DNA of 55,701 nt from a virus (taxonomy: Duplodnaviria > Caudoviricetes), in IMG/VR virus record IMGVR_UViG_3300031740_000002, positions 1 through 55,701 of that record. One strand, written 5' to 3'. Position 1 is the stretch's first letter, and each line of letters opens with the position of its first letter. Under the pieces are notes generated by a model. The model saw only the letters and a list, made by a program, of their open reading frames with translations. It ran no database searches and was not told where the DNA came from. Shown here one piece after another: positions 2,048 to 55,561 of this stretch. A program made the position numbers and the translations under genes.

Positions 2048-2260
2048 CTAGGTCTGTTGTTGTACGCGGGCCGCGGCCATGCGTTCGATCTCGGCTGGCT
2101 TAATGGTCGCCCATGGTGGCATCCGTGGGTAGAGCCTGTCCGCTGCGCTCGGTGCCGGCCGCTCCGGTCGCAGGTTGATCCAGGTGCCCAGCGGGCCGGT
2201 CAGCCCTCGTATCACGGCGAGGCGGTTGTCTTCAGCCACGTTCATGAGCACGTAGTGCAT
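2048..2260 (-). CDS. Tail assembly chaperone, downstream (-1 frame) segment
   Basis: Lies between chaperone and tape measure; its frame stays open upstream past 2410, overlapping the chaperone. Confidence 0.65.
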   Translation of the reverse strand: MHYVLMNVAEDNRLAVIRGLTGPLGTWINLRPERPAPSAADRLYPRMPPWATIKPAEIERMAAARVQQQT

Positions 2261-2286
2261 GACCAGATCCAGCCAGTCGGCGAGGT

Positions 2287-2823
2287 TTAGATGGCGGTGA
2301 CCTCCGGCTGTGGCGATGGCCCATCCGTTGAAGAGGTGCCATCGTTCCGGGTGGCCGTCGGCTGCTCCGTCGATCCAGTTGGCAAGCTGGATGACGGCGT
2401 CGTAGGGCGCAGGCCGAACTTCTCCAGAAGCAGATACAGCGTCGGCATGACCTCGGTCTGCAGGTCCACCGGGTCATCTTCGTCGTAGAGCCGCTCGCGC
2501 AGGCGCCCCCCTTCGGTGCCGCCGACCATGAGCGCCATGCAGTCAGCCGCAGCCTTCAGGGTGGCCGTCAGATTGCCCTTGGACGATTCGAGCGCCGCGA
2601 GCATTCCCGTCAGACGTTCGATCTTGCCGAAGCCGAGCTTGGCCGGCGCGGTGAACACATTGGCGTCGCCGTCGCCGAGGCGGAACCGGAAGGGTGCCTT
2701 GTTGCGGTTGGTCATGTCGATGACGCCGTCGGCACCGACCATGGGAGTGGGGACGGCCAACCTGCTCAGCACCTCATCGAGAGGCATTTCAGCCGACAGG
2801 TCCGCGGGGGAGGCTTGTGTCAT
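2287..2823 (-). CDS. Tail assembly chaperone
   Basis: Position before tape measure; LLEKFGLRPT motif; TAGACT 6 nt before the ATG (leaderless-type). Confidence 0.75.
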   Translation of the reverse strand: MTQASPADLSAEMPLDEVLSRLAVPTPMVGADGVIDMTNRNKAPFRFRLGDGDANVFTAPAKLGFGKIERLTGMLAALESSKGNLTATLKAAADCMALMVGGTEGGRLRERLYDEDDPVDLQTEVMPTLYLLLEKFGLRPTTPSSSLPTGSTEQPTATRNDGTSSTDGPSPQPEVTAI

Positions 2824-2880
2824 GCAGGCAGTCTAGATCGTTGTCACCTGTCGCCCATAGTGCACCGCCTGACATGTCAC

Positions 2881-3117
2881 TTAGTCACGGGAAACCGGAT
2901 AACCGCCGCGGTTGACCCGAATAGCCGGGATGGCCCACGGCTCTTCCCAGACGTCGATTTCGCCAACGGCCATCATCTCGGCCAGCCAGTCGAGATCCTC
3001 AGCGGTCAGACCGGCGGGCCACACCTGCGGCATGACACCCGTCCTAATCGTGACGAAGTCCCAGGCCGCCGAGCTGGGCGCGCACCAACCACCGCTCGCA
3101 CTGATAACGCTGTCCAT
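2881..3117 (-). CDS. Small protein resembling the N-terminal segment of the mature major capsid protein
   Basis: ISASGGWCAPSSAAWDF and IPAIRVNRGGYPVS match capsid MVAAGGWCAPSQIRYDF and LPTFGVERGGINFPVS; promoter GTGACA-18-TATCGT-7-ATG. Confidence 0.7.
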   Translation of the reverse strand: MDSVISASGGWCAPSSAAWDFVTIRTGVMPQVWPAGLTAEDLDWLAEMMAVGEIDVWEEPWAIPAIRVNRGGYPVSRD

Positions 3118-3137
3118 GTCAGTCACGATAACGCGTC

Positions 3138-3158
3138 ACCACTTGACATGTCACTCAG
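3138..3158. promoter_or_regulatory. TGAC-N2-GTCA motif copy
   Basis: ACCACTTGACATGTCACTCAG; a weaker copy has its core at 2870-2879. Confidence 0.75.
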
Positions 3159-3589
3159 TCTCGCGCCGCAGGTAGCGCGTTGCGTAGGAACGGGTTGGCG
3201 ACCATACCCTGGACACGGCGCGCGTAGACGTAGCGGCCGCGGTGGTGCGGCCGGAAGCGCAGGAACTTGCGACTGCGCGGAGTGATCCAGCGATGGCGCG
3301 GCCCGTGCAGACCGGTGCCGTCGTGCACGTAGCGCGCGTAGACGACATTCGAGCCGATGATGCAGACCGGCAGCCCACGGCGCATCACGATCTGCGTCGT
3401 GATCGAGGCACGCAGGCGCCCGGTGTCGACGCGCTTGGGCCCTCCCACGCCGCCCAGGTTGCGCTTGGCCTGCGTCTCGACCTTCAGGCCGCGTCGTAGC
3501 AGATCCTGGGCCAGCGGGCCGCGTGAGCTGTTGATGAGGGCGCGCAGAGCCTGCGGGTTGAGCCGGTGGGTGACCACGACGCGCGCCAT
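3155..3589 (-). CDS. HK97 gp10-like tail completion/neck protein
   Basis: VDTGRLRASI, GSNVVYARYVHDGT and NPFLRNAL motifs; basic. Confidence 0.85.
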   Translation of the reverse strand: MARVVVTHRLNPQALRALINSSRGPLAQDLLRRGLKVETQAKRNLGGVGGPKRVDTGRLRASITTQIVMRRGLPVCIIGSNVVYARYVHDGTGLHGPRHRWITPRSRKFLRFRPHHRGRYVYARRVQGMVANPFLRNALPAARD

Positions 3590-3592
3590 AGC

Positions 3593-4165
3593 TCAGCCTG
3601 GACACAGACAGGTCGTCACGGCGAACGAGAATGGTATTTCTATCCCACCGCAGCCGCCGGACTCCGGATAGGTCACGGCCGGCTCGATCAGCCAGGCGCC
3701 GATGGTGAAAGCGCTGGCCAGGTCGCTCAGACAGCAGGCCATCCCCTGCAGCGCCGCAGTGCGGTCGTTTTCCAGCGTGATGGCCGCGGCGAGCAGATCA
3801 TCACAGTCCGGCGGCGCGCCGTCCTGGTCCAGTGCGGGCAGGCAGCGAGTGATCGACGCGACGGCGCGGGCGACCATGAAGCGCGGTCCGCATTTGCTCC
3901 AGGTCACGCCGTTGGCCGGCTGCGGGAAGCTGTTCGACCCGTAGACGCTGGTGATAGCCAGAGCGACCTGACCGGGCGCGCCGCAGTCGCCGTCGGTGTC
4001 GCACGGGCCGCAGTTGTCCCAGGCGATGAGGCTGGTGGGTACGAGCAGGCACTGCCGGCACGGGGCACCGGCCGGCGTCTGCTCCAGAGCCTCGACAATG
4101 CAGGCGCCTATGCCGGTGACGATGCCGGCCAGGTTCGGCGAGGTCAGGTTGACATGGACGGTCAT
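3593..4165 (-). CDS. Putative tail terminator (Cys-rich)
   Basis: Gene order between adaptor and gp10-like gene; C-terminal GGCGG; start overlaps upstream stop. Confidence 0.6.
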   Translation of the reverse strand: MTVHVNLTSPNLAGIVTGIGACIVEALEQTPAGAPCRQCLLVPTSLIAWDNCGPCDTDGDCGAPGQVALAITSVYGSNSFPQPANGVTWSKCGPRFMVARAVASITRCLPALDQDGAPPDCDDLLAAAITLENDRTAALQGMACCLSDLASAFTIGAWLIEPAVTYPESGGCGGIEIPFSFAVTTCLCPG

Positions 4166-5001
4166 GTTCCTACCCGGCGGTAACTGCCCCCTGGCTCATC
4201 GACGTCGAAGACCATGGGCACCGACTGCAGGCCCTCGGGGTTGTAGGCCGCGATGAACATGTCGCACCAGCGCAGCCCGAGCCGGCGATCCCGCAGCATC
4301 TCGCTGTAGGTCGGGAAATCGATCGTGATGCCCTGGCGCGTGACGGTGGTGGCGTTCTTGGGGATGGCGCAGGGCGCCCCGGTGCAGGCCTTGATGATCT
4401 CACAGGCCAACTCGCCGACGGCCAGCTTGCCGATTTGCGGGACGGCCTGGCCCACCTGAACGCTGACACTCCAGGTGTCGAGCTCGGTGTCGGCCAGCGT
4501 CATGTCCTGGCAGATCGGCCAGGTCTGGCCACCCAGGCGCACGAGCTCGCGGAAGTTGTCGACGCGATAGCCCGAGGCCGGCAGCGTCTCGCCATTCAGC
4601 TTGACCGACACCACCGCGGCGACCGGGGAGGGCAGCAGGGCTACGGACAACTCGGTGCACGAGCAGGAGCCGCGGCAGCCGCCGCAGGTGAGATTGAACC
4701 AGGCGCCGCCGATCAGCGCCGGGCGTGGCCAGGAGCTTCCCCACTCCCACCACGATCCGCCGCCCTGGCCGAGGCCGCCGAAGCCGCCGCCCCACCACCA
4801 GCCGTCGGCGCAGTCCTGCCGGCAGGGGCGCAGGTCGTCGAACTGGCAGATGCCGAACTGCTGGGCGGAGAGCTGGTAGAGCACCTCGGTTGCGGCCAGC
4901 AGCGCCGAACCGGTGATGGCGGGCGACGCGGTGGACAGGTCACAGCACCAGACCGGTTCCCACGGTTCGCACGGACCGCGGGTGGGTGTCGGGCTGCTCA
5001 T
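4162..5001 (-). CDS. Head-to-tail adaptor
   Basis: ATEVLYQLS, WPICQD, ELACE, TVTRQGIT and YNP motifs typical of actinophage adaptors. Confidence 0.75.
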   Translation of the reverse strand: MSSPTPTRGPCEPWEPVWCCDLSTASPAITGSALLAATEVLYQLSAQQFGICQFDDLRPCRQDCADGWWWGGGFGGLGQGGGSWWEWGSSWPRPALIGGAWFNLTCGGCRGSCSCTELSVALLPSPVAAVVSVKLNGETLPASGYRVDNFRELVRLGGQTWPICQDMTLADTELDTWSVSVQVGQAVPQIGKLAVGELACEIIKACTGAPCAIPKNATTVTRQGITIDFPTYSEMLRDRRLGLRWCDMFIAAYNPEGLQSVPMVFDVDEPGGSYRRVGT

Positions 5002-5123
5002 GGCCTACCACCTGCCTCCCGCCGTTGACAGTGCCGGTCGGTGCCCCCGTGGTACACCGACCGGCGCCGCCCTCGCGTGGCAGGCCTCGACTCGTGCCAC
5101 ACGATCAACGACACCGTACCCGA

Positions 5124-5786
5124 CTACGGGTAGGCGTTGATAGCGCAGGCCGAAGGTGGCGGCGTGGTGCTCTGCAGGTTGTAGAGATAGTGGTCCCCTG
5201 CGACCACCTGGCCCGAGCCCAGATAGCTGTTGCCGACCGTCCACAGCGGCGACGCGTCGTACGAGTTGGCCTTCAGCTGCAGCATCGACGCGTCCGGCCC
5301 GAAGGTCGTATCGCCGCGCTTGCCGTCGGACAGGTGCGGCCACGCGTGATACGGGTAGTAGGCCGTGCCGGTGCCGTCGCACGAACTGGCCGGCACCTGC
5401 CACAGCTCGAGGCTGAAGTGCTTGGGCGTCGCGTTGGACCATGTTCCGTGGGCGAAGCCGGTACCGGTCGGCGAGGCGGTGGCGGTGAGCAGCCGGGCGT
5501 TGATGATGCCGACCGGCAGTCCGACGTTCCAGCCGCACAAGTCGATCGTGACTTCGTCGTTGGTGTACTGGTCCGGGAACTTGAAGTTGACGCACAGCGT
5601 CCCGTCGGCCTTGCGGGTGATGACGCGGTTGCCGTTGTCGTACTGCGGCGACGTCTGCACCTGCGTGAAGCCGTCCCAGACCACCTGGGCCGATGACGAG
5701 CCGGTGACCGGCACGCCGCAGGCGTTGAGCGAAACCACGCGGATAACCAGACCCTGGATCGGCGAGGCACACAGAAGGTTGGTCAT
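5124..5786 (-). CDS. Major tail protein
   Basis: GGAG RBS before MTNLLCAS; RVVSLNACG and FSLELWQ motifs; directly after capsid genes. Confidence 0.75.
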   Translation of the reverse strand: MTNLLCASPIQGLVIRVVSLNACGVPVTGSSSAQVVWDGFTQVQTSPQYDNGNRVITRKADGTLCVNFKFPDQYTNDEVTIDLCGWNVGLPVGIINARLLTATASPTGTGFAHGTWSNATPKHFSLELWQVPASSCDGTGTAYYPYHAWPHLSDGKRGDTTFGPDASMLQLKANSYDASPLWTVGNSYLGSGQVVAGDHYLYNLQSTTPPPSACAINAYP

Positions 5787-5794
5787 GTGATCTC

Positions 5795-6727
5795 CTACGT
5801 TGCCGACAGAGGCGTACCGGTGATGTCGCCACCCAGGCTGATCGCTGCCGCAGGTGTGCAGCAGCACGAGTAGCCGAACAGCCAGGTCTGCTCAACCAGG
5901 GAACGCAGCGTGTTCGTTTCGCGGTCGAACATCTCGGAGAAGCGCCAGGTGTCCGGAGCGCCGCGGTAGCCGAAGATCGGCCCCGACATGTAGATCCAGG
6001 CGACGTTGGCTGTGAGCACGCCGGCCGGTGAGGTGCCTGGGTAGCCACCACCCAGCACGACCAGATTGCCCGACTGGGTCCTGAGTTGAGCGCCGTCGGT
6101 CTTCACCAGATTCCACTGCCACAGCGACGGGCCGAGCGAGGCCGGAACGTGCAGGATGCCCTGGCCGTTGGTCGGTGAGCAGGCCGCCCAGGCAGCCTCG
6201 ACGCGCTGCACGCCCTCGACGATGTCCAGCACCACCCCGGTTACCGGGGTGGCCGCACAGCCGAGCAGGCCCGGCGAGATGCCGGTGTCGACGGTGGCCG
6301 TGTTGTTGGCCAGATGCGGCCAGACCACGTTGGCATCCCCGCCGGCCGAGCCGGTCCAGAACGCCTGCTCAACCTGAAACGGCGTGACCCGCTGCAGGGC
6401 ATCGCGCGCCATGGACTGCCGCTCGGTCTCGCTGTAGCCGACCGGCGAGCAGTCCCACTGCGCGTAGACGGTGAACGCGGTGGCGGCAAACAGGGTCAGG
6501 TCGACGTTGCCGGCCTTGTCGGCAGGTGCGGGCGAGCCCTCGCAGTTGGCCTGGTAGAACGTCGCGATCGCGGCAGGATCGGCGCACCAGTCCTGCCAGG
6601 TGACACCGCCGCGCCAGTGCGGGTCGCCCGCTTCGTCGCGCATGTTAACCGCGGACAGCAGTCCGAAGTTGCGCGGCGTGTACGGAGGGGGCGCCACGAT
6701 CTGGCGCGGTCCGCCGATGGCTACCAT
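5795..6727 (-). CDS. Second capsid protein (pentamer-type/minor capsid)
   Basis: 310 aa directly after the major capsid; FGLLSAV, HWRGGV, VEQAFW, GGGY; arrangement as in actinophages with separate hexamer and pentamer proteins. Confidence 0.7.
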   Translation of the reverse strand: MVAIGGPRQIVAPPPYTPRNFGLLSAVNMRDEAGDPHWRGGVTWQDWCADPAAIATFYQANCEGSPAPADKAGNVDLTLFAATAFTVYAQWDCSPVGYSETERQSMARDALQRVTPFQVEQAFWTGSAGGDANVVWPHLANNTATVDTGISPGLLGCAATPVTGVVLDIVEGVQRVEAAWAACSPTNGQGILHVPASLGPSLWQWNLVKTDGAQLRTQSGNLVVLGGGYPGTSPAGVLTANVAWIYMSGPIFGYRGAPDTWRFSEMFDRETNTLRSLVEQTWLFGYSCCCTPAAAISLGGDITGTPLSAT

Positions 6728-6791
6728 CTCGTGTCACCCCCTCCGGTGCGTCGGGCCTAGCGTCTTTCGGGCGGTGTCGCTCACCCGACGG

Positions 6792-8684
6792 TTACGGGCA
6801 GCAGGACGTCAGGTCGGCTGCGCCGGTGGTGCCGTCCGGGCAGACGTTCATCGTGTACTCGCGCACCTCGTGACCGAACCGGGCGATGAGGTGGCACTCC
6901 TCGAGCCACGCCGCGGTGAAGTCGTTGGTCTCATTCAGCGTCGAGTCACGCACCACGCCGAGGTTGAGCGCCATGCCGTTGCCGCGGGCCACGGTGCCGG
7001 CCGCGTACATGAGGCCCTTCAGAGTCGACGGATACTGGGTGATCGCGGTGGCCGCGCCGGGCTGGCCGGACGCGCGGACCTGATAATCCTGCACGAACTG
7101 CACGCGGATGCCGCGCACGTCGAACCAGCGCGCGATCTCCGAGTTCGGCACGGCCATGAAGTCGGACACGCCGGTGCGCTTGGCCAGGTCGGCACGGACC
7201 AGGCCGAGCGACCATTCCGGCAGCACCCACTCGATCACGTCCGTGTCGCACATGCCGAACTTGGCCCGGTAGTCGATCGCGGACAGCTCGGCGGTGTTGA
7301 GCACCGGAGCCGCCGCGCCGGTGCCGGTGGCCGAACATCCGGCGACCGCGGTGGACAGGTTGGCGATGCTCGCGATGTAGCGGGCGTTGCTGGCGTGGTA
7401 GTGCGCGGACATGAGCAGGCGCAGGAAGTTGCGGGTCGACTCGGGCCATGCGTTGTCGGCCAGGTTGCCAGCAGTCATGCAGATGCCGTAGCACTCCAGG
7501 CGCACGTCGCTCATGGTCGAGCAGGGCACCCGGATGCACGGCTTCGTCGGCGAACCGGTGGCGGCCAGGATGTCCGAATGCTCGGTCCACAGCCACGGCA
7601 CGGTGGCGTTGCTGAACGCCGTGTACCAGGGCAGTGCCGGACTGAACGTGTCGGCCAGGCTCGGGCTGACCGGGAAGTTGATGCCGCCGCGCTCCACGCC
7701 GAAGGTCGGCAGGTCGATCATGCCGCACTCGCCGGCGATGTTGAAGAAGTCGTAGCGGATCTGGCTCGGTGCACACCAGCCGCCCGCGGCCACCATCGTC
7801 TCGAAGGCGGAGCCGCTGGCCTTCGAGCGCAACCCCTCGATGTAGGCGTCCACCGCGTCACGCGGAGTCGTCTCATTGAAGCGGTTGGCGCCGAAGTCGT
7901 GCGCGATCGAGGCGACCTGCACGCCGCCGTAGGGCTTCTGGTGGTCGGCATCCCCGCGCAGGCGGTGGTAGGCCGCGGCACCGTCGCGGACCTGGCGACG
8001 ACTGAAGCCGTTCTGGTCGGCCATGTTGCGGGCGCGGTCCTCGACCAGATCGGTGAGCTGACGCATCTGGGAGATGCGGCCACCCATCTCGACCTGTCCG
8101 GGAAGGCCCACGCTTGCGGTCAGTGCGAGCGGCGCGGCGCCTGGATCGCTGGACAGCGCGGGCTGTGCGGTGCGCATGCTCGACAGCGACGGGTTGAGGC
8201 TGCGCCTGGGGCCGCCCACGCCGCCGGTGTCGCGCGAGCCGGTCTGGGCGCCGCCGGTCGGGCGCGCCGATGATGCGGCGATGGCCTGCGGTGTGGGCGC
8301 CGCCACGGCGGGCTGGGCAGGCTCGGCGCCGCCCGGCACAGCGTCAGCCGCGTTGCCGTCGTCGCCGGTCGTGTCGCCTTCGTCGCCTGGCTCGGTGGCC
8401 TCGGGCGGGCGCACGTCGTTGATGAGCGCCTCGAATTCGGCGTCCGTCTCGGCGATCTCGTCGGCGATCGCCTTCTCACGGCCCTTGATCGCCTTGATGG
8501 CCTTCCCGAGCCGCTGCGCCTCGGGCAGGTTCTCCGGCGTGCGGTTCTCCAGAACCACGTCCAGTTCGGCGTCGGCCTGGGTCCGCAGCTCGGCCAGCTG
8601 TTCGACGGTCAGACTCGTCAGATCAGCGGGAAGTTGGAAGGGGGCGCCCGCGTCGCCAGCGCCGCCCGTGGTGGTCTTCGGCAT
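6792..8684 (-). CDS. Major capsid (hexamer) protein with N-terminal scaffold-like region
   Basis: Acidic coiled-coil N-terminus, then AAGGWCAPS..YDF, KPCIRVPC, AGNL..WPE and RDSTLN..ND motifs; start reassigned to MPKTT. Confidence 0.9.
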   Translation of the reverse strand: MPKTTTGGAGDAGAPFQLPADLTSLTVEQLAELRTQADAELDVVLENRTPENLPEAQRLGKAIKAIKGREKAIADEIAETDAEFEALINDVRPPEATEPGDEGDTTGDDGNAADAVPGGAEPAQPAVAAPTPQAIAASSARPTGGAQTGSRDTGGVGGPRRSLNPSLSSMRTAQPALSSDPGAAPLALTASVGLPGQVEMGGRISQMRQLTDLVEDRARNMADQNGFSRRQVRDGAAAYHRLRGDADHQKPYGGVQVASIAHDFGANRFNETTPRDAVDAYIEGLRSKASGSAFETMVAAGGWCAPSQIRYDFFNIAGECGMIDLPTFGVERGGINFPVSPSLADTFSPALPWYTAFSNATVPWLWTEHSDILAATGSPTKPCIRVPCSTMSDVRLECYGICMTAGNLADNAWPESTRNFLRLLMSAHYHASNARYIASIANLSTAVAGCSATGTGAAAPVLNTAELSAIDYRAKFGMCDTDVIEWVLPEWSLGLVRADLAKRTGVSDFMAVPNSEIARWFDVRGIRVQFVQDYQVRASGQPGAATAITQYPSTLKGLMYAAGTVARGNGMALNLGVVRDSTLNETNDFTAAWLEECHLIARFGHEVREYTMNVCPDGTTGAADLTSCCP

Positions 8685-8797
8685 GGATGCCCCCGTGGTA
8701 AGAGATGAATTCGATTCACCTTCAGCCGGTGGCACCCAGCCCAATTACGTCTTTGCGCGCCATCATAGGGTGTGGTGATCAGATTACGCCATAGACC

Positions 8798-8887
8798 CTA
8801 CTGCGCCGCACCTGATTCGCCGGAGCCGGTGGTGGGCGGTGGCGTCTGCGGCTGGGGCGGTGTCGTCCCCTTTCCACATGAACACAT
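8798..8887 (-). CDS. Micro-protein MCSCGK...SGAAQ (29 aa)
   Basis: Strong RBS GGGGAGGTG; absent from the ORF track, translated by hand. Confidence 0.7.
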   Translation of the reverse strand: MCSCGKGTTPPQPQTPPPTTGSGESGAAQ

Positions 8888-8901
8888 GGTGATCACCTCC
8901 C

Positions 8902-9030
8902 CTACTGGGCTGCGCCGGAGTCTTCGGTACCGGTGGTTTCCGGTGGCGGCACGCTCGGATCACGGTGCGGCTCGTGACGCTGCCCGCACTGCTGGCACAT
9001 CGGCCATACGACGTCCTGAGCCTCAGCCAT
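8902..9030 (-). CDS. Micro-protein with CxxC, ending SGAAQ (42 aa)
   Basis: ATG overlaps protease end; C-terminus resembles 8798-8887; translated by hand. Confidence 0.6.
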   Translation of the reverse strand: MAEAQDVVWPMCQQCGQRHEPHRDPSVPPPETTGTEDSGAAQ

Positions 9031-10963
9031 CGCGGCCTGCCGCCACCAGCACCTCGGCCCAGCGCACCTGCTGGGTACGCCCGGCAGCGTCGGCGATCAT
9101 GTCGAACAGATCGTCATAATCGGGCTCGGCGACGGGCTCGGGCTCCAGGAACACGATAGGCACCGATGATGCCACGATGGCATCCTCACGCACGCGCACG
9201 CTGGAGCGCACCGGAGTCGGGAAGCCCTCGGACGGCACAAGCAGGGCCGCCTTCAGCTTGCCGCCCTGCCAGTCGCCGGACAGCGCGCAGGCCATCATCC
9301 GCTCCACCGCGTCCGAGCTGATGCCGTGCAGCAGGCCGCCCGCGACCCAGGTGCCGAACTGGTTTTCACCGACGCGCACCCTGGCCGCGATGGAGCACGA
9401 GTTGTCGTAGTGCTGCACCGCCCAGGACGGATCGGCGCGGCGCGGATCGACCGGCGAGGCGTGCCCGCAGTCGAAGGTGATGTTGCCGGCGTTGATCCGG
9501 TACACGCCGCCGTCGGCGCCGGCGACCAGGCACGCCTTGTTCTGGAACTCGGAGTAGTCGATATTGCGCGGCGCGGTGGGCGCACGCAGCTGACTGCGGA
9601 AGGCCCGATGCGTCACGCCGGCCGGCGCGAGCAACCCATAGACGCGTCCATCGGCGGTGATGTTGAGCGCGCCGATCGGCGGCAGTTCGGTCGGCTCGTT
9701 GAACCAGGACTCGGGCCACACCTCGGGAATGGTGATGGTGTAGCCGGCCGCTACGACCGCAGCTGTCGGCTCCTCATCGCCACCGAGCGGGGGCGGCTCC
9801 AGGCCTGCGTCGCGCAGGTGTCCGGCGAGATGTTCGTAGACGCCGGACGCGTCGCCGGCCGGGATGGTGGTTCCGCCGCGGCCACCGTTGAGCACGCCGA
9901 TGCCGGACTGGCACGCCTTGATGTTGGCAGCGCCGGGCGTGCCATCCTCGCCGACCTCATGGTGTCCGAAGCGTCCGCCCGACTTGGGGATCTGGCCGTC
10001 GACCACCTGGGCGTCGTCGATCCAGGCGTAGAAGGCGCGGGCGGTGGCGACCGGCATGGGTGATGCGAGGCGCTTCTCCGCGGCCGGGCCGTCCCACGCT
10101 GTGTCCGTGGTGGGTGTGTCATGCGGACCGACCGCCGCGGCGACCATGCCCAGATCGATCGGCGGCGCGGCGGTGATGGGCGGCATGAACGGCGACTCGC
10201 CCAGGCAGGCGGTGGCCTCGACGAAGGCCGGCTCTGGCAGCAAGGTCAGCGAGCGCACCCGCCCACTGTGATAGACGATCTCGATGGGCTCTGCCATGTC
10301 CATGCTGGCGTCAGCCACCATGACAGAGTTACGCCGCTCGTATGGGCGTCGCCGCGCAGTGCCGGGCGGGCGGCTGCGGTCGTAGGTCGGGCCGCCACGC
10401 TTGCCGTGATCCTTCTGGTTGTGCTTGCCGGCCAGGTGGAAGTCTTCATCGTCGACCGACCCGTCGGGTCCTGCTTCGATGATCTCGTCGCCGAGCAGTT
10501 CCGGCTCTGCATAGATCAGTTCGATGTCGGTCTGGTCCATGTCGTCGGCGAGGATCGAATTGCCGCGCAGGAAGTTGCCGGCCATGAGCCGCTGCGCCTC
10601 GGCGCCGGCGGCGCCTGCGGAGTCCATGGTGCCGACCCAGCGGATCAGCGCGCCGTCGCGCCACATGGCGTCCACGCTACCGACGATGACCGCGCCGGCG
10701 TGACCCTCGGCCTCGGCGGGCTGCCACTTGAGCGCGAACGGAGTGGGTGCGAACTTCAGCGCGCCGACCTCCCAGCGCCGCCGCGGCATGCTGCCGTCCG
10801 TCACGCCCTCGATGCAGGCCACGCCGTAGCAGGGGGCGCCGGCACCGTCGGGCACGAGCACGGCAGCCATGACGCCGTCGGCGTCGTACTCGTCGTCACC
10901 GGTCAGTGCGAACTCGTCTTCGAGCACCTGCGGGTCGTCACTGGGTGGCGTTGTCGGCTGCAC
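9023..10963 (-). CDS. Capsid maturation protease, multidomain
   Basis: GTG after GGGGGTG; GHAGAVIVGSVD, LTLLPEPAF and ALSGDW motifs; upstream of capsid. Confidence 0.75.
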   Translation of the reverse strand: MQPTTPPSDDPQVLEDEFALTGDDEYDADGVMAAVLVPDGAGAPCYGVACIEGVTDGSMPRRRWEVGALKFAPTPFALKWQPAEAEGHAGAVIVGSVDAMWRDGALIRWVGTMDSAGAAGAEAQRLMAGNFLRGNSILADDMDQTDIELIYAEPELLGDEIIEAGPDGSVDDEDFHLAGKHNQKDHGKRGGPTYDRSRPPGTARRRPYERRNSVMVADASMDMAEPIEIVYHSGRVRSLTLLPEPAFVEATACLGESPFMPPITAAPPIDLGMVAAAVGPHDTPTTDTAWDGPAAEKRLASPMPVATARAFYAWIDDAQVVDGQIPKSGGRFGHHEVGEDGTPGAANIKACQSGIGVLNGGRGGTTIPAGDASGVYEHLAGHLRDAGLEPPPLGGDEEPTAAVVAAGYTITIPEVWPESWFNEPTELPPIGALNITADGRVYGLLAPAGVTHRAFRSQLRAPTAPRNIDYSEFQNKACLVAGADGGVYRINAGNITFDCGHASPVDPRRADPSWAVQHYDNSCSIAARVRVGENQFGTWVAGGLLHGISSDAVERMMACALSGDWQGGKLKAALLVPSEGFPTPVRSSVRVREDAIVASSVPIVFLEPEPVAEPDYDDLFDMIADAAGRTQQVRWAEVLVAAGRDG

Positions 10964-11005
10964 ATGATCACCCCCGTCAGGCCAGATCATACGCCGCCGG
11001 GTACG

Positions 11006-11045
11006 CGACAGCCGAGACCGTGAGTGGAAACAGTCTCGGCTGTCG
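11006..11045. terminator. 13-bp perfect inverted repeat
   Basis: CGACAGCCGAGAC-N14-GTCTCGGCTGTCG between 2H gene and protease; no U-tract. Confidence 0.45.
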
Positions 11046-11082
11046 ACGGTGGCCGATCCGGGCGCGGATGGACCGGCACAGT

Positions 11083-11853
11083 CTAGCGCGGCTCGCCGGC
11101 CATGCGCATTATGCAGATCTCGCCGGGCAGGTGCGCCTCCGGCGAACCGCATCTGATGCAGCCGTCTGACGGCTCGCGCAGGTCGTACTCAAAAAGGGTC
11201 GGCGACGGGGCGCAGAAGCCGCCCGCCGCGGTAGCGACGTCATCCACCGGCAACTCGTCAAGCTCTGGCGTTGCCCCTGCGTCCGACTCGGGCTCTGCAT
11301 CCGGCTCCGGCGCGGTATCGGACTGGACCGGCATGCCCAGCGGGATATCGGTGACTTCGCCAGCAAAGGCGAAGCGGAGCCGGTCGAAACGCACCGGCCC
11401 GACGCGCTGCGCCACGCTGGCGAACTGTTCGGGGACAGCCACGGACGCCTCGGCCTGGCCGACGTAGGCGAGCGTGATGTGCGGGATGAAGGGCTCGTGT
11501 TGCTCAGGCCACGCCACCAGATCAGCGCAGCCGGCCTGGACGTCGGCATGCACCTCGGCGATCTCCGGACTGTTCAGGATCAACGCCACACACGGCTCGT
11601 CACCGACCGGGTTGACCAGCGCCGCGGCGAAGGCTTCGCCCTCGACAGCCTCCCACGCTGCGGCGTACTCACGCCCCCAGGCGACCAGTGCGGCCCGTTC
11701 GTCCGACTCGATAGCCTCGCCGTCGCCGAGGTACAGCAGCGTCAGGTGCAGATCGCCGACAAGTTCGGCGCCTTCGTCGCCCAGCGCCAGGAAGTCGGCA
11801 GAGTCGGAGTCAGGGAGCAGTGCGATCATCGCTCCGGTGTGTTCGTCGGCCAT
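11083..11853 (-). CDS. 2H phosphoesterase (2'-5' RNA ligase-like)
   Basis: Two HxT motifs (LHLTL, PHITL); acidic linker, then GGFCAPS and CxxC at the C-terminus. Confidence 0.85.
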   Translation of the reverse strand: MADEHTGAMIALLPDSDSADFLALGDEGAELVGDLHLTLLYLGDGEAIESDERAALVAWGREYAAAWEAVEGEAFAAALVNPVGDEPCVALILNSPEIAEVHADVQAGCADLVAWPEQHEPFIPHITLAYVGQAEASVAVPEQFASVAQRVGPVRFDRLRFAFAGEVTDIPLGMPVQSDTAPEPDAEPESDAGATPELDELPVDDVATAAGGFCAPSPTLFEYDLREPSDGCIRCGSPEAHLPGEICIMRMAGEPR

Positions 11854-12083
11854 CAACCGCTCCGGATCTTCGTCACGTCTGCCTGATATGCCTTACGGCG
11901 CAGATGTGCAGCCAGATGGCGACGCGCCATCTTCTCGGCACGCCTGCGCCCACCGAGTACGAATCGAGAATCGTATTCAAACATGCCCTCATGCACAGTA
12001 AGCAGATAGGACCAGCGCCCGGTGCGCGCAACCGTGACGTATGGGTCAAGGTACCCGTCGTCGGCCATGAAAGCGTCAGTCAC
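11853..12083 (-). CDS. Hypothetical protein
   Basis: Start and stop overlap both neighbours. Confidence 0.55.
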   Translation of the reverse strand: MTDAFMADDGYLDPYVTVARTGRWSYLLTVHEGMFEYDSRFVLGGRRRAEKMARRHLAAHLRRKAYQADVTKIRSG

Positions 12084-16394: not shown

Positions 16395-17975
16395 CTACCG
16401 GTGCGTCGAACCGTTGACGTGCCCGTTGCCGACACGGCTGAGCGCACGTCCCAGCGCCCCGGCCGATGCGACCAGTGCGGGCGGCGCAGGCCGCGGCGGC
16501 GTACCGCCCGGCTGTGGCGGTGGTTCGGCGCGGGTGTCCGGCATGGTGCGTGGGCTACCGACGGAGGGTGCCGGAGCGTCCGGTGCCACGGTCGGACCGG
16601 CACCCTCCGTCGGAGTCATGGCGGGCTGCCCGGTCAGCTCGGAGATCGCAGCAGGGATGAGCTCGGCAACGCCCTTGACGATGATCCGCTTGTTGGCCCA
16701 GGTCTCGATCTCGTCGGGATCGGTGAGCGCGTCGGACTCGTCGAAGCCGGCCTCGCGACGGTAGGCGGTTTCGTTGATCACGCCGTCGGCGTACATGGCG
16801 CCGGCGCGCTCGGCCATGTCCGGCTTCGCGCTCAACTCGGTGGTGTCGTACCAGGCGATCAGTCGACCGCCCTGCGCGCCGACCAGCGGTAGGCCTTCCT
16901 GGCGCAGGGCACGCACGAGGTAGGCCTTTGTGACCGCGCCGCAGATGACCTCGGCGAGCGGCGCGAAGCACAGCCGGATCTCCTCCTCGGAGATCTGCCA
17001 GGCGTTCCAGTGATTCTGCTCGCCCATGCCGCCAGTGACCCGGTTGCGGTCGATGCCCAGCGTGTCGCCCAGGCGCCCCAACTCGTCGAGACGCTCTTTG
17101 AGCAGCCACTCGTCCAGCGGGTCGTCGGGCTTGAGCAGCTTCCACTTCTCGATCAGCTTCTCGGTGAAGCGGATCGGGATGGGGAAGCCGGCGCTGGCCA
17201 GGCCGGGGTTCTTGATGTTGCGTGACCCGATGTCCATGAGCATCGCGATGAACGGGTCCGGCGCCTGCTTGTACTGGTCGGGCACGCCGATGGTGCCCTC
17301 TGCGGGGATGAGCAGAAAGCCGTTCATGACCAGGCGGCTGACCATCATGGCCACGATGCGCGAGTCGATCAGGAAGATACGGCGCATGATCGGGATGGCG
17401 GCCTGCGCGTTACTGGTGGCAAGCCACGGCCATTGCGGGTCGGGCTGATAGATGCGGATAGGCAGGTTGTCCGGAGCCAGGTCGCGCCAGGTCGCCTCAC
17501 CGACGCGCACCTTGTACGTGTAGCCGACCGGCCAGATGCAGTTGGTCGAGTAGACGCCCCAGTCGGCCTGAGAGAGCGGAATGCGCGGGTCGTCGCGTTC
17601 GGCGATCAGCCAGCCGTCGCCGGGGATGGTGAGCTGCGGCGTGATGGCGCGAAGAAACGCGGAGTGTCCGGGCGGCCCACCGCAGAACTCCTGCATCAGC
17701 TCGGCTGCCGGACCGTCGGTGAGCATCTCAGGCTCGTCGGCGCCGGGCACCACCTCGGCCGCGCCGAGCCTGATCCGCGACATGGCGCGAGCCTGCCAGT
17801 CGGTGGCCTCGAAGAACTCGCCGAGCGTGCGCCGGAAGGCCCAAGCCTCATCCTGCCAGGGCTGGTAGCCGAAGATCTGGGCGTTCTGGAACTGCTGCGG
17901 CGTGTAGGTGGCGCTGGCCGCTACGAGCGGTCGCTGTGCCACGGCCAACGAACGGGACGGCAGGCTGTCCGGCAT
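16395..17975 (-). CDS. Portal protein
   Basis: About 526 aa between terminase and MuF; WQDEAW and NHWNAWQI motifs. Confidence 0.85.
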   Translation of the reverse strand: MPDSLPSRSLAVAQRPLVAASATYTPQQFQNAQIFGYQPWQDEAWAFRRTLGEFFEATDWQARAMSRIRLGAAEVVPGADEPEMLTDGPAAELMQEFCGGPPGHSAFLRAITPQLTIPGDGWLIAERDDPRIPLSQADWGVYSTNCIWPVGYTYKVRVGEATWRDLAPDNLPIRIYQPDPQWPWLATSNAQAAIPIMRRIFLIDSRIVAMMVSRLVMNGFLLIPAEGTIGVPDQYKQAPDPFIAMLMDIGSRNIKNPGLASAGFPIPIRFTEKLIEKWKLLKPDDPLDEWLLKERLDELGRLGDTLGIDRNRVTGGMGEQNHWNAWQISEEEIRLCFAPLAEVICGAVTKAYLVRALRQEGLPLVGAQGGRLIAWYDTTELSAKPDMAERAGAMYADGVINETAYRREAGFDESDALTDPDEIETWANKRIIVKGVAELIPAAISELTGQPAMTPTEGAGPTVAPDAPAPSVGSPRTMPDTRAEPPPQPGGTPPRPAPPALVASAGALGRALSRVGNGHVNGSTHR

Positions 17976-18038
17976 GCTCACCCCCGTGATCGGCCGTTGT
18001 CGCCATGGTAGACCGTGATCGACCAAAGGGGCAGACAG

Positions 18039-21106: not shown

Positions 21107-22621
21107 CTAGCGCCCCCACGGCAACATACTCATCTCGGACAGAGCCAGTGCGCCGGCCGAAGACGTCGAACCGGTCGACGGCACGGGCAGCAGTTCGTAG
21201 GCCAAGTGCACGCTGGCGTCGATGCGGCCGGGCGAGTCCCCGCCCGGCGTCCAGGTCGACCACTCCGACTCCAGGTCGGGCAGGTAGGCCGAGGTGCCGC
21301 AGCGGTCCTCTATCCACTGCTGGCCGATCGGCTCGGCGCGCAGGTACTTACCGCGACGACTGTGCACGCTGATGATGCGCGGACACAGGTCGCCGAAGCG
21401 CGCCGGGTCCTCAGCGTGCAGGCGGTCCCAACTCGTGCGGATGACGTACTCAGCCTGATCGCCGCCGTAGTTGGCCTCGAAAACGATGAAGTCGGCGCCG
21501 ATGTCCGCGGCGAGCTCGCAGGCCGCACGCCCCCAAGCGTCAGCCGACATGACGCCGGAGCGGTCATGGCTGAACATGAGCCGGCCATCCTCGCCCAGGT
21601 AGCCGCCGATGATGCCCGCCGTGTCGCGGCCACCGCCGGAAGGGTCGACAGCCACCCCCACGCGTGACGGAGGCGAGCAGGTGCCGCGCTGGTGGCAGCG
21701 CCGCTCGCGCAGCAGGTCGGCCTTGACGAGCACACCCTCAGGCGCCTTCGGGTCGCACTGGTACAGGGCGCGCCAGTCGCGCACGCTGACGGTGGAGCGC
21801 ATCAACTCCCAGTGCCGGATCAGCGCCGAGACGTTGCCGGCCGGCACGGCAGGGTGCGGGATGGGATCGCCGGCGTTGCGCCCGAGCGGATCGGTGGCAG
21901 GGTTTTCGCAGAGCGCGGCCATGATGCACACGCGCCAACGCCCGCCGTTCTCAACCAGGCCCTGCTCGTTGACCACGCGGGCGCGCAGGTCGTCCGGATG
22001 CCAGGGCGTTTGGATCAACAGAACGGACGTGCCCGGCACCGAACGGGTCATCAGGTCGCCGGACCACCAGTCATAGATGGCGTCCCGGCGAGCCACCGAC
22101 TCAGCCTCGGCGCGAGACTTGGTCGGGTCGTCAACCACGATCAGGTCGCCGTCGTGGCCGGTGATACCCGACCCGACGCCGACGGCGCGCACGCCGCCCC
22201 CGGTGGTCAGCGACCAGTCCTTTTTGGTGCCGGCGCCGCGCTCGAGCACCAGCCCGTAGGCGGCGCCGTAGGTCTGCACGAGCTTGCGGATGTGCACGCC
22301 GGCGCGGGTGGCCAGGTCGTCGCCGTAGCAGCCGATGATGACGCGGTGGGTGGGATGGCGGATCAGCCACCAGAAGACGAACCACTCAACGGCGGTGCGG
22401 GTCTTGCCCACGCGCGGCGGCGTGTTGACCATCAGCCGGTCGAACTCCGCGCGCTCCAGCGCGGCGAGCTCGGCGCCGATGACCTCGAGGTGCGCTCGGA
22501 CCTCGTAGCGCGGATCGAGCTTGGCGGCCAGGGTGACCGGGTTTTCCAGCTCCGGTCGCTCGTCGCCGCGTGTCGCGTCAGGGTCGATCAGGTCGGCGAC
22601 GGCGCTATACAGGCCGGACAT
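21107..22621 (-). CDS. Terminase large subunit
   Basis: PPRVGKT, LIVVDDP, VAVDPSG, FEANYGG, SPGRIDA. Confidence 0.95.
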   Translation of the reverse strand: MSGLYSAVADLIDPDATRGDERPELENPVTLAAKLDPRYEVRAHLEVIGAELAALERAEFDRLMVNTPPRVGKTRTAVEWFVFWWLIRHPTHRVIIGCYGDDLATRAGVHIRKLVQTYGAAYGLVLERGAGTKKDWSLTTGGGVRAVGVGSGITGHDGDLIVVDDPTKSRAEAESVARRDAIYDWWSGDLMTRSVPGTSVLLIQTPWHPDDLRARVVNEQGLVENGGRWRVCIMAALCENPATDPLGRNAGDPIPHPAVPAGNVSALIRHWELMRSTVSVRDWRALYQCDPKAPEGVLVKADLLRERRCHQRGTCSPPSRVGVAVDPSGGGRDTAGIIGGYLGEDGRLMFSHDRSGVMSADAWGRAACELAADIGADFIVFEANYGGDQAEYVIRTSWDRLHAEDPARFGDLCPRIISVHSRRGKYLRAEPIGQQWIEDRCGTSAYLPDLESEWSTWTPGGDSPGRIDASVHLAYELLPVPSTGSTSSAGALALSEMSMLPWGR

Positions 22622-22832
22622 GGCTTTCCGCCGGATGGCCCTCCGGATCATCCTCCCTACCGACGAGACGCCCGCTCTCGTCGAACACGTAGGGATGGCG
22701 CCGACGGCGCGGCTGTGGCGCGCGAGGCTCAGCGGTGACCCAGGCGATGTAGCCGATCACGGCCAGCATCAGACCGACCGACAACCAGGAGCATGCCAGC
22801 ACGGTAGCCAGATCCCAGATCGTCGGCGTCAC
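22605..22832 (-). CDS. Small membrane protein
   Basis: One TM segment; coupled to both terminase genes. Confidence 0.5.
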   Translation of the reverse strand: MTPTIWDLATVLACSWLSVGLMLAVIGYIAWVTAEPRAPQPRRRRHPYVFDESGRLVGREDDPEGHPAESHVRPV

Positions 22833-45050: not shown

Positions 45051-46163
45051 TCAGCGACGTAGGTACGATGCCGTCCTGATCTTAACCTGTCGCTGGATCT
45101 TCACCGCGTCCGTCCAAGCCTCGATCCACCGCCAGGCGTTGCCCTCGACCGTGTAGTCCGCCGCGGCCTGCCGGCCGGCCTGCGTCTGCTCGGCGCGCAG
45201 GTCGTCGTCGTCGAGCAGAGTCTTGGCGCGCTGGTACCACTGCCGCGGGTTGTTGGCCAGGAACCCGACGCCGGTCGTCCGCGCCAGCTCCGCGTATTCG
45301 GCGCGCGGGGAGGCCACCCAGGGCACTCCGCAGGCCATCGCCTCCAGCGGCTTGAGCCACGACTTGGCTGTGTTGAAAACGGTGTCGGCCAGCGGCGCCA
45401 GGACGACACCCATGTTGGCGACCTTGCGCGGATAGTCGTCGAAGTCGGTATTGCCGGCGGTGTCCAGGTCGTCCTCATCAACGGTCATGCCGAAGGCCCG
45501 GTGAAGCATGCCGTCGCCGGGCGCATAACCGTAGTTCGGCCCGACGCCCCAGTACTTGTAGCCCTCCCGGATCAGCCTGGCCACGGCCGCCCCGAGCACC
45601 GGCAGATCGCTCGGGTGCGAGTGGATCGAGCCGGGCCAGCCGAAGGTCGCCCGGTCCACATGCTCGATACCCAGGTAGCCGCGCGGGACGGTGTTGCGCA
45701 CCACTACGCCGCGCCCATGCGGTGCGTAGGTCTTGAGCAGCGCCGGCGTGGAGACGGTAACCATGGTGGCGTCCAGACAGGCCTGGACAGCGTTCTCCCA
45801 GTTGTGCTGCACCACGCCCATGTCTTTGCGCATCGCGACCCAGGCCGGATTGGACGGGTCGATGCGGGCAAGATCGTCGTCCATGTCGACGATGACGGCC
45901 ACCCCCTGATCGCGCAGCAGGGGAATGCCCGAGGCCAGGTTGAGCATCGAGACACGCTGCAACACGATCGCCTCGGCGTCGGGCGGCACGAAGGCCGATA
46001 CGGCGCGGTTGGTGCGTAGGTCGATGTCCCCGCCGATGCCCTGCCGCGAACCGGGCATGACAATCTTGACGTCGTGGCCCTGCGCCGCGGCGGCCGCGGC
46101 CGGCCAGATCATCCGGTAGTGCCCGCAGCCGTACTTGTCGGCGGGGTAGACATAGATCGTCAC
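45051..46163 (-). CDS. Glycosyltransferase, GT-B type
   Basis: GCGHYR, DMDD, APLADTVFNTAKSWLKPLE, GVPWVAS. Confidence 0.88.
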   Translation of the reverse strand: MTIYVYPADKYGCGHYRMIWPAAAAAAQGHDVKIVMPGSRQGIGGDIDLRTNRAVSAFVPPDAEAIVLQRVSMLNLASGIPLLRDQGVAVIVDMDDDLARIDPSNPAWVAMRKDMGVVQHNWENAVQACLDATMVTVSTPALLKTYAPHGRGVVVRNTVPRGYLGIEHVDRATFGWPGSIHSHPSDLPVLGAAVARLIREGYKYWGVGPNYGYAPGDGMLHRAFGMTVDEDDLDTAGNTDFDDYPRKVANMGVVLAPLADTVFNTAKSWLKPLEAMACGVPWVASPRAEYAELARTTGVGFLANNPRQWYQRAKTLLDDDDLRAEQTQAGRQAAADYTVEGNAWRWIEAWTDAVKIQRQVKIRTASYLRR

Positions 46164-46294
46164 GAGCTACCGGCCCGGCGCTTCAGAGCTGCTCTCCGTC
46201 GCTGCGCGGGTCTGAGAATCAGGTAGTAGGCGGTGAGGACGCCGGCCATGAGGCCAGCGAATCCCCCACCGAGCACCGCGAGCGCGTATTTCAT
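46160..46294 (-). CDS. 44-aa single-TM protein
   Basis: ATGA and GTGA overlaps with both flanking GT genes; translated by hand. Confidence 0.6.
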   Translation of the reverse strand: MKYALAVLGGGFAGLMAGVLTAYYLILRPAQRRRAALKRRAGSS

Positions 46295-46995: not shown

Positions 46996-47035
46996 GTCCA
47001 GAGGCTACGTGACAAGCTGGTGACGGATCAAGCGG

Positions 47036-55560: not shown

Positions 55561-55561
55561 C

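What the first reader, a model, noticed from the sequence alone, without database searches (positions are those of the whole stretch)
2881..3117. Mini-capsid paralog: 78-aa copy of the mature capsid N-terminus in the tail module
Seen: two collinear matches to the major capsid (SASGGWCAPSSAAWDF vs VAAGGWCAPSQIRYDF; PAIRVNRGGYPVS vs PTFGVERGGINFPVS) around an unrelated acidic insert; flanked by two motif copies and with its own promoter. Inference: an independently expressed capsid mimic acting as assembly modulator, internal cement or decoy against capsid-sensing immunity.
Basis: partly seen in the sequence, partly recalled or inferred. Interest (0 to 1): 0.75.

Follow-up and report, generated by a model that had tools for sequence, protein, structure and literature searches.

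The report
Stand-alone copy of the capsid N-arm
A soil phage carries a small, conserved extra gene whose protein is built from the two most conserved stretches of its own capsid protein's N-terminal arm wrapped around a short acidic helix, a previously unnamed family that probably acts on the capsid shell by imitating that arm.

Summary
The minus-strand ORF 2881-3117 encodes a 78-aa acidic protein. Its N-terminal block (ISASGGWCAPSSAAWDF) and C-terminal block (IPAIRVNRGGYPVS) match, in order, the start of the mature part of the phage's own major capsid protein (MCP 317-360). A ~40-aa helical insert separates them.

It is not a decayed duplicate.
- It belongs to an unnamed family of at least 41 stand-alone proteins (56-122 aa) from metagenomes, all keeping both blocks and the insert.
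- The family profile aligns to the MCP profile at 98.35% probability, E 1.1e-14.
- There is no DNA-level similarity to the phage's own MCP gene.

The gene is accessory and mobile.
- Only 2 of 11 phage records with this MCP type carry a copy.
- It sits at three different loci in three related phages.
- Here it fills a variable slot between the tail-completion and tail-chaperone genes, behind a promoter-like copy of the phage-wide motif placed for a leaderless ATG.

In an AlphaFold model both blocks lie in the MCP N-arm, before the E-loop. Alone, only the insert helix folds.

My best reading (0.45) is an N-arm surrogate that docks on the capsid lattice. The decoy, competitor-poison and third-partner readings remain open. 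Binding, expression and presence in virions are untested.

The parts
2881..3117 (-). Small gene, 78 aa plus TAA stop (N-arm mini-protein). The public gene call keeps only the last 50 aa.
   Evidence: ORF. The codon-position GC pattern 0.62/0.54/0.76 is the coding-like frame of the six. 16 stand-alone homologues and 41. The truncated 50-aa call is P0001.
3055..3105 (-). Block 1, residues 5-21, ISASGGWCAPSSAAWDF. It matches MCP 317-336.
   Evidence: G10, W11, C12 and P14 are invariant in 42 family members.
2932..3054 (-). Insert, residues 22-62, with the acidic amphipathic helix WPAGLTAEDLDWLAEMMAVGEID. It has no counterpart in the MCP.
   Evidence: It is unaligned in hhalign. W33, L37, D41 and W44 are invariant. 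It is the only confidently folded part: helix 39-51, with block-mean pLDDT 91, 93 and 80 for residues 31-40, 41-50 and 51-60.
2890..2931 (-). Block 2, residues 63-76, IPAIRVNRGGYPVS. It matches MCP 344-360.
   Evidence: P64, R70, G71 and G72 are nearly invariant.
3125..3154 (-). Promoter-like site GTGACA-18 nt-TATCGT, ending 7 nt before ATG 3117 (leaderless layout).
   Evidence: The same layout (-10, then 7-8 nt, then a start codon) is seen at other copies of the motif. Consensus only.
3137..3163 (.). Upstream copy of the phage-wide motif, with the palindromic core TGACATGTCA.
2863..2889 (.). Downstream copy of the motif. It overlaps the stop codon and lies upstream of the chaperone-like gene.
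   Evidence: A copy at the same junction exists in the relative G001 (L014 position 2574).
7665..7796 (-). MCP segment (residues 317-360) homologous to the two blocks. This is the N-arm of the mature capsid protein.
   Evidence: In the AF2 model of MCP 300-650 it precedes the E-loop hairpin (111-126) and the spine helix (135-164).
6792..8744 (-). Major capsid protein gene, 650 aa, with a ~300-aa N-terminal extension.
   Evidence: phrog_777 E 1e-118. NF033847 scores 463 bits against a cut-off of 75. HK97-fold matches at prob 1.0.
3155..3589 (-). Upstream neighbour: the tail-completion/Neck1 gene.
   Evidence: phrog_5 E 7e-14 and a sub-threshold HK97-gp10_like hit.
2287..2823 (-). Downstream neighbour: the chaperone-like gene upstream of the tape measure. 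The name is given by position only.
   Evidence: No family hit. Homologues sit at the same position in L003, L007, L014 and L017. The tape measure is at 3-2021.

Best explanation
The ORF is a real, conserved, mobile accessory gene. Its product is an acidic 78-aa protein made of the two most conserved segments of the capsid protein's N-terminal arm (N-arm), separated by a short helical insert.

Most likely it works as an N-arm surrogate. The two arm segments are unstructured on their own. They would dock, probably by adding strands, onto the capsid-protein surface that normally receives a neighbour's N-arm. The helix would then be displayed or would act as a spacer. By doing so the protein would act on the capsid lattice: as an accessory cement or vertex filler, or as a modulator of how subunits join.

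Shown:
- homology to the N-arm
- family conservation
- coding frame
- mobility and sporadic distribution
- location of the blocks before the E-loop in a model
- disorder of the blocks in a model

Inferred:
- that it binds the capsid protein
- where it binds
- the effect of binding
For: (1) Homology to the N-arm.
- hhalign prob 98.35%, E 1.1e-14 over both blocks.
- 16 of 17 members hit phrog_777 and 16 of 17 hit NF033847.

(2) Real and selected.
- 41 stand-alone relatives at E <= 6.5e-16.
- 8 invariant and 8 nearly invariant positions in 42 sequences that are 36-49% identical to the window protein.
- Synonymous codons differ from the MCP gene at the shared residues.
- A coding-like GC pattern.

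(3) The blocks are the constant part.
- P0172 and P0173 keep both blocks but carry different inserts.

(4) In 27 of 42 members at most 10 residues precede the GW of the motif, so the proteins start about where the conserved MCP part starts.

(5) Models.
- In the MCP, the blocks lie before the E-loop hairpin and spine helix. Block 2 forms strands 48-50 and 56-60.
- In the small protein, only the insert helix is confident and both blocks are low-confidence. This is what one expects of arms that fold on a partner.

(6) The gene is co-oriented with late structural genes in all three contexts seen. In L006 its start and stop overlap the flanking genes.

(7) Precedents, read as passages only.
- P74-26 Dec and the portal-vertex protein use N-arms that join MCP sheets (PMC12407722).
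- Patience/Adjutor gp4 is a small accessory protein that is a random coil when free and lies next to the MCP N-arm (PMC11965321).
Against: - The gene is present in only 2 of 11 records with this MCP type, and absent from 4 records rated 98-100% complete. It is therefore not needed to build this capsid.
- It is not next to the MCP gene in any context seen.
- In a closed lattice every N-arm site is normally filled, so a free docking site is not obvious.
- No structure of this MCP family is solved, and the N-arm is low-confidence in the model. The docking geometry is therefore unknown.
- The strict invariance of GWCAP could reflect a partner other than the MCP.
- There are no data on expression or on virion content.
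Confidence: 0.45

Rival explanations
1. Trans-acting capsid poison for phage-against-phage competition. The free N-arm copy caps subunits of a co-infecting relative that uses the same capsid type and blocks its assembly. The phage's own capsid protein would tolerate it.
For: - The distribution is sporadic and mobile, at three loci in three relatives.
- It diverges fast relative to core genes. The window copy and the G001 copy are 46% identical, while the MCPs are 78% and Neck1 is 62%.
- It may have its own promoter of the phage-wide type.
Against: - It would also threaten the carrier's own assembly. The blocks are at least as close to the own MCP as to others.
- No integrase or repressor family was found among the 52 window proteins scanned, so there is no obvious lysogen to protect.
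- It is embedded in late operons.
Confidence: 0.17
2. Decoy or shield against a host immune sensor that recognises the capsid N-arm. The mini-protein would soak up or mask the sensor.
For: - The N-arm blocks are among the invariant columns of the MCP (A20, G22-A26, D45-P47, R53 and G55 of 48 invariant columns). That would make them a good target for a sensor.
- The gene is accessory, mobile and fast-diverging.
- Capsid-sensing immunity exists in other bacteria. For 10.1101/2022.05.30.493996 I saw only the title and the start of the abstract. The rest is recalled.
Against: - No sensor for this motif is known.
- There is no anti-defence neighbourhood around the gene.
- In L006 and G001 it is placed inside late or packaging operons rather than among early genes.
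- Nothing in PADLOC matches, although that library holds defence proteins rather than counter-defence proteins.
Confidence: 0.15
3. It binds a third partner that also recognises the capsid N-arm. Candidates are the prohead protease, the scaffold-like N-terminal domain, or the virion glycosyltransferases. The mini-protein would tune maturation or modification.
For: - GWCAP is strictly invariant in both the MCPs and the mini-proteins.
- The similarity extends a few residues upstream of the motif. MCPs often have an acidic residue there, and so do the longer mini-protein leaders (read by eye).
- In L006 the gene sits between two glycosyltransferase genes with overlapping stop and start codons. 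The window has the orthologous pair, at 43% and 46% identity.
Against: - The cleavage site of this MCP family is not known from any call here.
- Only 1 of 3 contexts is next to glycosyltransferases.
- No similarity to any protease or transferase partner was tested.
Confidence: 0.15
4. A decayed fragment of a capsid gene with no function.
For: - The GC3 of 0.76 is lower than in neighbouring genes, which range 0.81-0.90.
- The public gene call is truncated to 50 aa.
- The gene is absent from most relatives.
Against: - 41 diverged stand-alone homologues share intact frames, conserved blocks and a conserved insert.
- There is no DNA similarity to the MCP gene.
- The gene shows translational-coupling geometry in L006.
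Confidence: 0.03

Closest known systems
N-arm of HK97-fold major capsid proteins of the NF033847 / phrog_777 family (actinophage type; tblastn hits include Mycobacterium, Gordonia and Microbacterium phages)
   Same: It shares sequence homology over both conserved N-arm blocks, in the same order, beginning at about the same distance from the N-terminus as the conserved part of the MCP.
   Different: It has no E-loop, P-domain or A-domain, so there is no HK97 fold. A ~40-aa helical insert is absent from the MCPs. It scores far below the family cut-off (23 bits against 75).
Small capsid accessory proteins that use an extended arm: P74-26 Dec and the portal-vertex protein, and Patience/Adjutor gp4
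   Same: These are small proteins. Where reported they are disordered when free, and their arm joins or lies against MCP elements next to the MCP N-arm (passages of PMC12407722 and of PMC11965321).
   Different: No sequence relation to them was found. Those proteins are not reported in those passages to be derived from the MCP itself. Presence in virions is unknown here.
phrog_20604 ('virion structural protein', 76-position profile)
   Same: It covers the same N-arm blocks. The window MCP 316-362 matches profile positions 2-49, and 7 of 17 family members match weakly.
   Different: The profile is a contiguous N-arm without the insert. The window mini-protein does not reach E 0.1 against it.
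Phage morons (independent small transcription units inserted between conserved late genes). The concept is recalled, not read here.
   Same: - It is an extra gene in a slot that is empty in L003, L004 and L007 and holds unrelated ORFs in L014, L016 and L017.
- It has a promoter-like site.
- Its GC3 is lower than that of its neighbours.
   Different: No terminator-like site follows it on its strand. Its product is derived from a structural protein.

Membership tests
NF033847 / phrog_777 major capsid protein | Score above the curated family cut-off over the full profile | tested here: not met
   23.1 bits against a cut-off of 75, matching only profile positions 236-256 of 549. For phrog_777 it matches positions 258-278 of 580.
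NF033847 / phrog_777 major capsid protein | HK97 fold (E-loop hairpin, spine helix, P and A domains) | tested here: not met
   The 78-aa model has one helix and no capsid-like fold. No structural match reached Z >= 2 among 48,161 chains.
NF033847 / phrog_777 major capsid protein | Homology to the N-arm segment | tested here: met
   hhalign prob 98.35%, E 1.1e-14. BLASTP E 6e-6.
Unnamed N-arm mini-protein family (defined here) | GWCAP block within about 25 residues of the N-terminus | tested here: met
   G10, W11, C12 and P14 are invariant in 42 sequences. The motif starts after 9 residues in the window protein.
Unnamed N-arm mini-protein family (defined here) | Insert helix W-P-x-G-L-x(3)-D-x(2)-W | tested here: met
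   W33, L37, D41 and W44 are invariant. P34 and G36 are at least 90% conserved.
Unnamed N-arm mini-protein family (defined here) | C-terminal P-x(5)-R-G-G block and an overall length of 56-122 aa | tested here: met
   P64, R70, G71 and G72 are at least 90% conserved. The window protein is 78 aa.
Capsid decoration / cement / vertex accessory proteins | Present in the virion and bound to the MCP lattice | not testable with these tools
   This is an uncultured soil virus. There are no proteomics and no map.
Capsid decoration / cement / vertex accessory proteins | Gene next to the MCP gene. This is usual rather than strict, and is recalled. | tested here: not met
   The gene lies 3.7 kb from the MCP gene in the window. 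In the relatives it lies next to the large terminase gene or between glycosyltransferase genes.
Moron | Inserted between genes that are adjacent in relatives | tested here: met
   Neck1 and the chaperone-like gene are adjacent in L003, L004 and L007.
Moron | Own promoter and own terminator | tested here: inconclusive
   One promoter-like site was found. No terminator-like site was found on the minus strand. There are no RNA data.

The most novel reading that the evidence does not exclude
Phages have turned the most invariant piece of their own capsid protein into a free-standing, horizontally traded mini-protein that acts in conflict rather than in construction. It would either be a decoy that blinds a host sensor of the capsid N-arm, or a dominant-negative cap that sabotages the capsid assembly of competing phages with the same capsid type. 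The variable insert would serve as the swappable effector part.
Probability: 0.25. Interest if true: 0.85.

Novelty: new variant of a known kind. Interest (0 to 1): 0.6.

Why it matters
Small phage proteins that act on capsids are usually found only by cryo-EM or proteomics. Here a family can be recognised from sequence because it is derived from the capsid protein itself.

If it binds the lattice, it marks the N-arm docking site of a large capsid family for which no solved structure was found here (NF033847; 1549 relatives at E <= 1e-10 among the 8000 candidates scored). It would also show a simple evolutionary route from a structural protein to an accessory protein: keep the arm, swap the middle.

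If instead it is a decoy or a competitor poison, it would be a new type of conflict protein.

Either way it is directly testable, because cultured Mycobacterium, Gordonia and Microbacterium phages use related capsid proteins.

Tried and rejected
- **Complex prediction** of MCP 300-650 with the mini-protein, both given as alignments: no verdict (score 0.00, mark 0.32; controls not run). It is not used as evidence either way.
- **Sequencing runs:** no RNA holder was listed. The single holder is a DNA run of a soil metagenome that may be the source. No reads were laid.
- **Isolated phages.** megablast of 2200-9000 gave no match. tblastn of the mini-protein found no stand-alone homologue in 50,697 records. 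It gave only weak hits (E 1-10), and 37 of the 40 listed rows lie in capsid genes.
- **First word-index search** with the single protein: only the window's own 50-aa call was found. Relatives appeared only with the exhaustive phmmer search and with the profile.
- **Three long hits** (P0006, P0009, P0018) are repetitive, low-complexity proteins. I dropped them as spurious after reading them.
- **Weak likeness to the Dinoroseobacter phage R4C hub protein** (8gtc_P, E 0.045; the same phage at E 6) and to Tail_P2_I (E 0.11). I treated these as chance. No other family member supports them.
- **Other libraries:**
  - ESM Atlas: no usable hit.
  - Fold search of the mini-protein model: nothing at Z >= 2.
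  - PADLOC: nothing.
  - Pfam: nothing significant.
- **PDB by sequence and by profile for the MCP:** no relative found. The N-arm docking geometry could therefore not be read from a structure.
- **The search for related loci with the family alignment:** I used single members instead. P0008, P0169 and P0167 gave no locus.
- **dN/dS:** not possible. The two contigs with a shared member (L005 and L006) are identical over the gene, and the other pairs are too diverged.
- **Literature:** no paper with all four of 'major capsid protein', 'N-arm', 'paralog' and 'bacteriophage', and none containing 'GGWCAP'. Searches listed nothing that describes a stand-alone N-arm copy. Supplements were not seen.

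Full report
**What the window is**

The window is a whole IMG/VR virus record of 55,701 bases, rated 75% complete. Its GC content is 67.7%, and the only sequencing run listed as holding it is a soil metagenome.

The late genes run on the minus strand, in this order:

| Gene | Coordinates | Evidence |
|---|---|---|
| Large terminase | 21110-22651 | |
| Portal | 16398-18026 | |
| 1197-aa MuF-like protein | (upstream of the capsid gene) | |
| Major capsid protein (MCP), 650 aa | 6792-8744 | phrog_777 E 1e-118; NF033847 463 bits |
| Major tail protein | 5124-5867 | |
| Head-tail adaptor | 4162-5001 | |
| Neck1 / tail-completion | 3155-3589 | |
| The ORF in question | 2881-3117 | |
| Chaperone-like gene | 2287-2823 | named by position only |
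| Tape measure | 3-2021 | |

No integrase or repressor family was hit among the 52 proteins scanned.

**The observation**

The ORF is open from 3126 (GTG) or 3117 (ATG) down to 2881. Of the six frames, this one has the coding-like GC pattern, 0.62/0.54/0.76. Its GC3 is lower than that of neighbouring genes, which range 0.81-0.90.

- *Block 1.* BLASTP against the phage's own MCP gives 11/18 identities, E 6e-6.
- *Block 2.* BLASTP did not find it for this pair. It is recovered at family level:
  - the profile-profile alignment spans both blocks around an unaligned insert (prob 98.35%, E 1.1e-14);
  - tblastn of the MCP aligns residues 303-358 across the entire homologous mini-gene of L005/L006 (E 3e-7);
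  - the mini-protein profile hits the two blocks separately inside the MCP ORF in 9 of 10 related phage records.
- *Independent libraries.* 16 of 17 family members hit phrog_777, and 16 of 17 hit NCBIfam NF033847.

The two flanking motif copies are real (27 nt, 85% identical, 274 nt apart). So is the promoter-like site.

**It is a gene family, not a remnant**

An exhaustive phmmer search of 1.84 billion representatives gave 20 hits at E <= 0.001:
- the window's own truncated 50-aa call;
- three repetitive proteins, which I discarded after reading them;
- 16 stand-alone proteins of 56-97 aa, 38-54% identical over nearly the full length.

A profile search then gave 61 hits. Of these, 41 are full-length members at E <= 6.5e-16. 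None has a name beyond 'hypothetical protein', and none has a Pfam domain.

In the 42-sequence alignment, G10, W11, C12, P14, W33, L37, D41 and W44 are invariant. A13, P34, G36, M48, P64, R70, G71 and G72 are at least 90% conserved. Mean column identity is only 27%. All 42 proteins are acidic, with net charge -3 to -11. In 27 of 42, at most 10 residues precede the motif.

At the residues shared with the phage's own MCP the codons mostly differ, and blastn finds no match at the corresponding positions. The similarity is therefore old and is kept at the protein level.

The 78-aa ATG form fits the family N-termini. The public 50-aa call cuts off block 1.

**It is accessory and mobile**

- *Census.* Of 10 other IMG/VR records with this capsid type, only G001 has a stand-alone member. 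Four of the records that lack it are rated 98-100% complete.
- *G001.* Its MCP is 78% identical to the window's (P0065; P0065 and P0013 share a longest-contig length of 56,681 bases). Its member, P0013, is 46% identical to the window protein and lies just upstream of the large terminase gene.
- *L005/L006.* The member lies between two glycosyltransferase genes, with overlapping stop and start codons. The window has the orthologous pair, 43% and 46% identical, but holds a 44-aa hydrophobic ORF at that spot instead.
- *The slot used in the window (Neck1 to chaperone)* is variable:
  - empty in L003, L004 and L007;
  - two reverse-strand ORFs in G001;
  - one reverse-strand ORF each in L016 and L017;
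  - a 250-bp gap in L015.

**The motif**

The palindromic core TGACNNGTCA occurs 11 times in the window. The canonical form is TTGAC-N2-GTCACTAGGT. At most non-structural sites, about 8 nt after that form comes TAGNGT, then 7-8 nt, then a start codon. This is a leaderless promoter layout (read by eye). The relative G001 uses the same motif, including one copy at the same junction.

At 33764 the palindrome seems to serve both directions. The copy at 3144 shares 18 bases, AGTGACATGTCAAGTGGT, with the minus-direction side of 33764. It gives GTGACA-18-TATCGT-7-ATG(3117). This is suggestive of independent, leaderless expression, but no RNA data exist.

**Where the blocks sit**

The AF2 model of MCP 300-650 (pTM 0.73) has an HK97 fold. 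Foldseek returned 232 matches at E <= 0.001, and the listed ones are almost all phage capsids, with a few encapsulin and virus-like shells. In model numbering:

| Element | Model residues | Note |
|---|---|---|
| Block 1 | 18-37 | mostly low confidence (7-34 under pLDDT 50) |
| Block 2 | strands 48-50 and 56-60 | |
| E-loop hairpin | 111-126 | |
| Spine helix | 135-164 | |

Both blocks therefore belong to the N-arm.

Within the MCP family the block residues A20, G22-A26, D45-P47, R53 and G55 are among the invariant columns.

The mini-protein model is confident only for the insert helix 39-51.

P0172 and P0173 keep both blocks but have different inserts. One of them has a weak, sub-threshold Rho_N-like hit. 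This suggests the arm blocks are the working constant and the middle is exchangeable.

**Mechanism**

I favour an N-arm surrogate (0.45). The two arm segments would dock where a neighbour's N-arm docks on the MCP, so the protein acts on the capsid lattice.

Passages I read describe analogous small proteins. The Dec and portal-vertex proteins of P74-26 thread N-arms into MCP sheets (PMC12407722). Patience/Adjutor gp4 is a random coil when free and lies beside the MCP N-arm (PMC11965321).

Points against this reading:
- the gene is dispensable for this capsid type;
- it is not next to the MCP gene;
- no free N-arm site is known;
- no structure of this capsid family exists.

The sporadic, mobile and fast-diverging pattern fits a conflict role equally well: a competitor poison (0.17) or an immune decoy (0.15). 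A shared third partner, such as the prohead protease, the scaffold domain or a glycosyltransferase, would also explain the strict invariance of GWCAP (0.15). A dead remnant is very unlikely (0.03).

**Comparison and novelty**

The protein is homologous to part of NF033847/phrog_777 but is not a member. It scores 23 bits against a cut-off of 75, and it has no HK97 fold. phrog_20604 covers the same blocks but is a contiguous N-arm without the insert.

- No Pfam, PADLOC or own PHROG family exists.
- No isolate phage in 50,697 records has a stand-alone member detectable by tblastn.
- The literature searches found no description.

I rate it a new variant of a known kind, a small capsid-directed accessory protein or moron, with moderate-to-high interest. 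Function is unproven, but the family is clear, conserved and testable.

Noticed in passing
window 19354, 20993, 23573, 27203, 30570, 33764, 38496 (also 2870 and 3144): A phage-wide promoter-like motif, TTGAC-N2-GTCACTAGGT, is followed about 8 nt later by TAGNGT and then, 7-8 nt further on, by a start codon (leaderless layout). At several sites the palindromic core seems to serve divergent genes. The relative G001 uses the same motif.
   Followed up: partly
L014 1926-2557; L016 724-951; L017 3438-3908; L015 545-797: The Neck1-to-chaperone junction is an insertion hot spot in this phage group. Relatives hold unrelated reverse-strand ORFs there (107+103 aa, 75 aa, 156 aa) or a 250-bp gap.
   Followed up: partly
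proteins P0172 and P0173 (metagenomic): Two small proteins keep the same two N-arm blocks but carry unrelated inserts. The P0173 insert has a weak Rho_N/HeH-like hit (E 0.034, below the cut-off).
   Followed up: partly
window 46164-46293 (-): A 44-aa hydrophobic ORF sits between the two glycosyltransferase genes, exactly where the related contig L006 carries its N-arm mini-gene.
   Followed up: no
window 45054-49347 (-): A cluster of glycosyltransferase and nucleotide-sugar epimerase genes follows the tail genes (phrog_7162, phrog_14775, phrog_540). It recalls the virion-glycosylation clusters of mycobacteriophages, a comparison made from memory.
   Followed up: no
window 6792-8744 (-), residues 1-~300: The capsid protein carries a ~300-aa N-terminal extension ahead of the conserved part. 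Relatives have the same layout (L009 639 aa, L007 549 aa). The cleavage site is not known.
   Followed up: no
window 11083-11856 (-) and 9023-11152 (-): A LigT-like 2H phosphoesterase (Pfam E 8e-8) sits in the head module and also hits a PHROG named 'head maturation protease'. The adjacent 709-aa protein hits portal- and protease-named PHROGs.
   Followed up: no
window 4162-5001 (-): The head-tail adaptor (phrog_783) is unusually rich in cysteine (CEPWEPVWCC, CGGCRGSCSC). Relatives show the same.
   Followed up: no
window 55111-55689 (-): An HNH endonuclease gene lies directly downstream of the tape-measure gene across the record ends. The record is circularly permuted relative to the gene order.
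   Followed up: no
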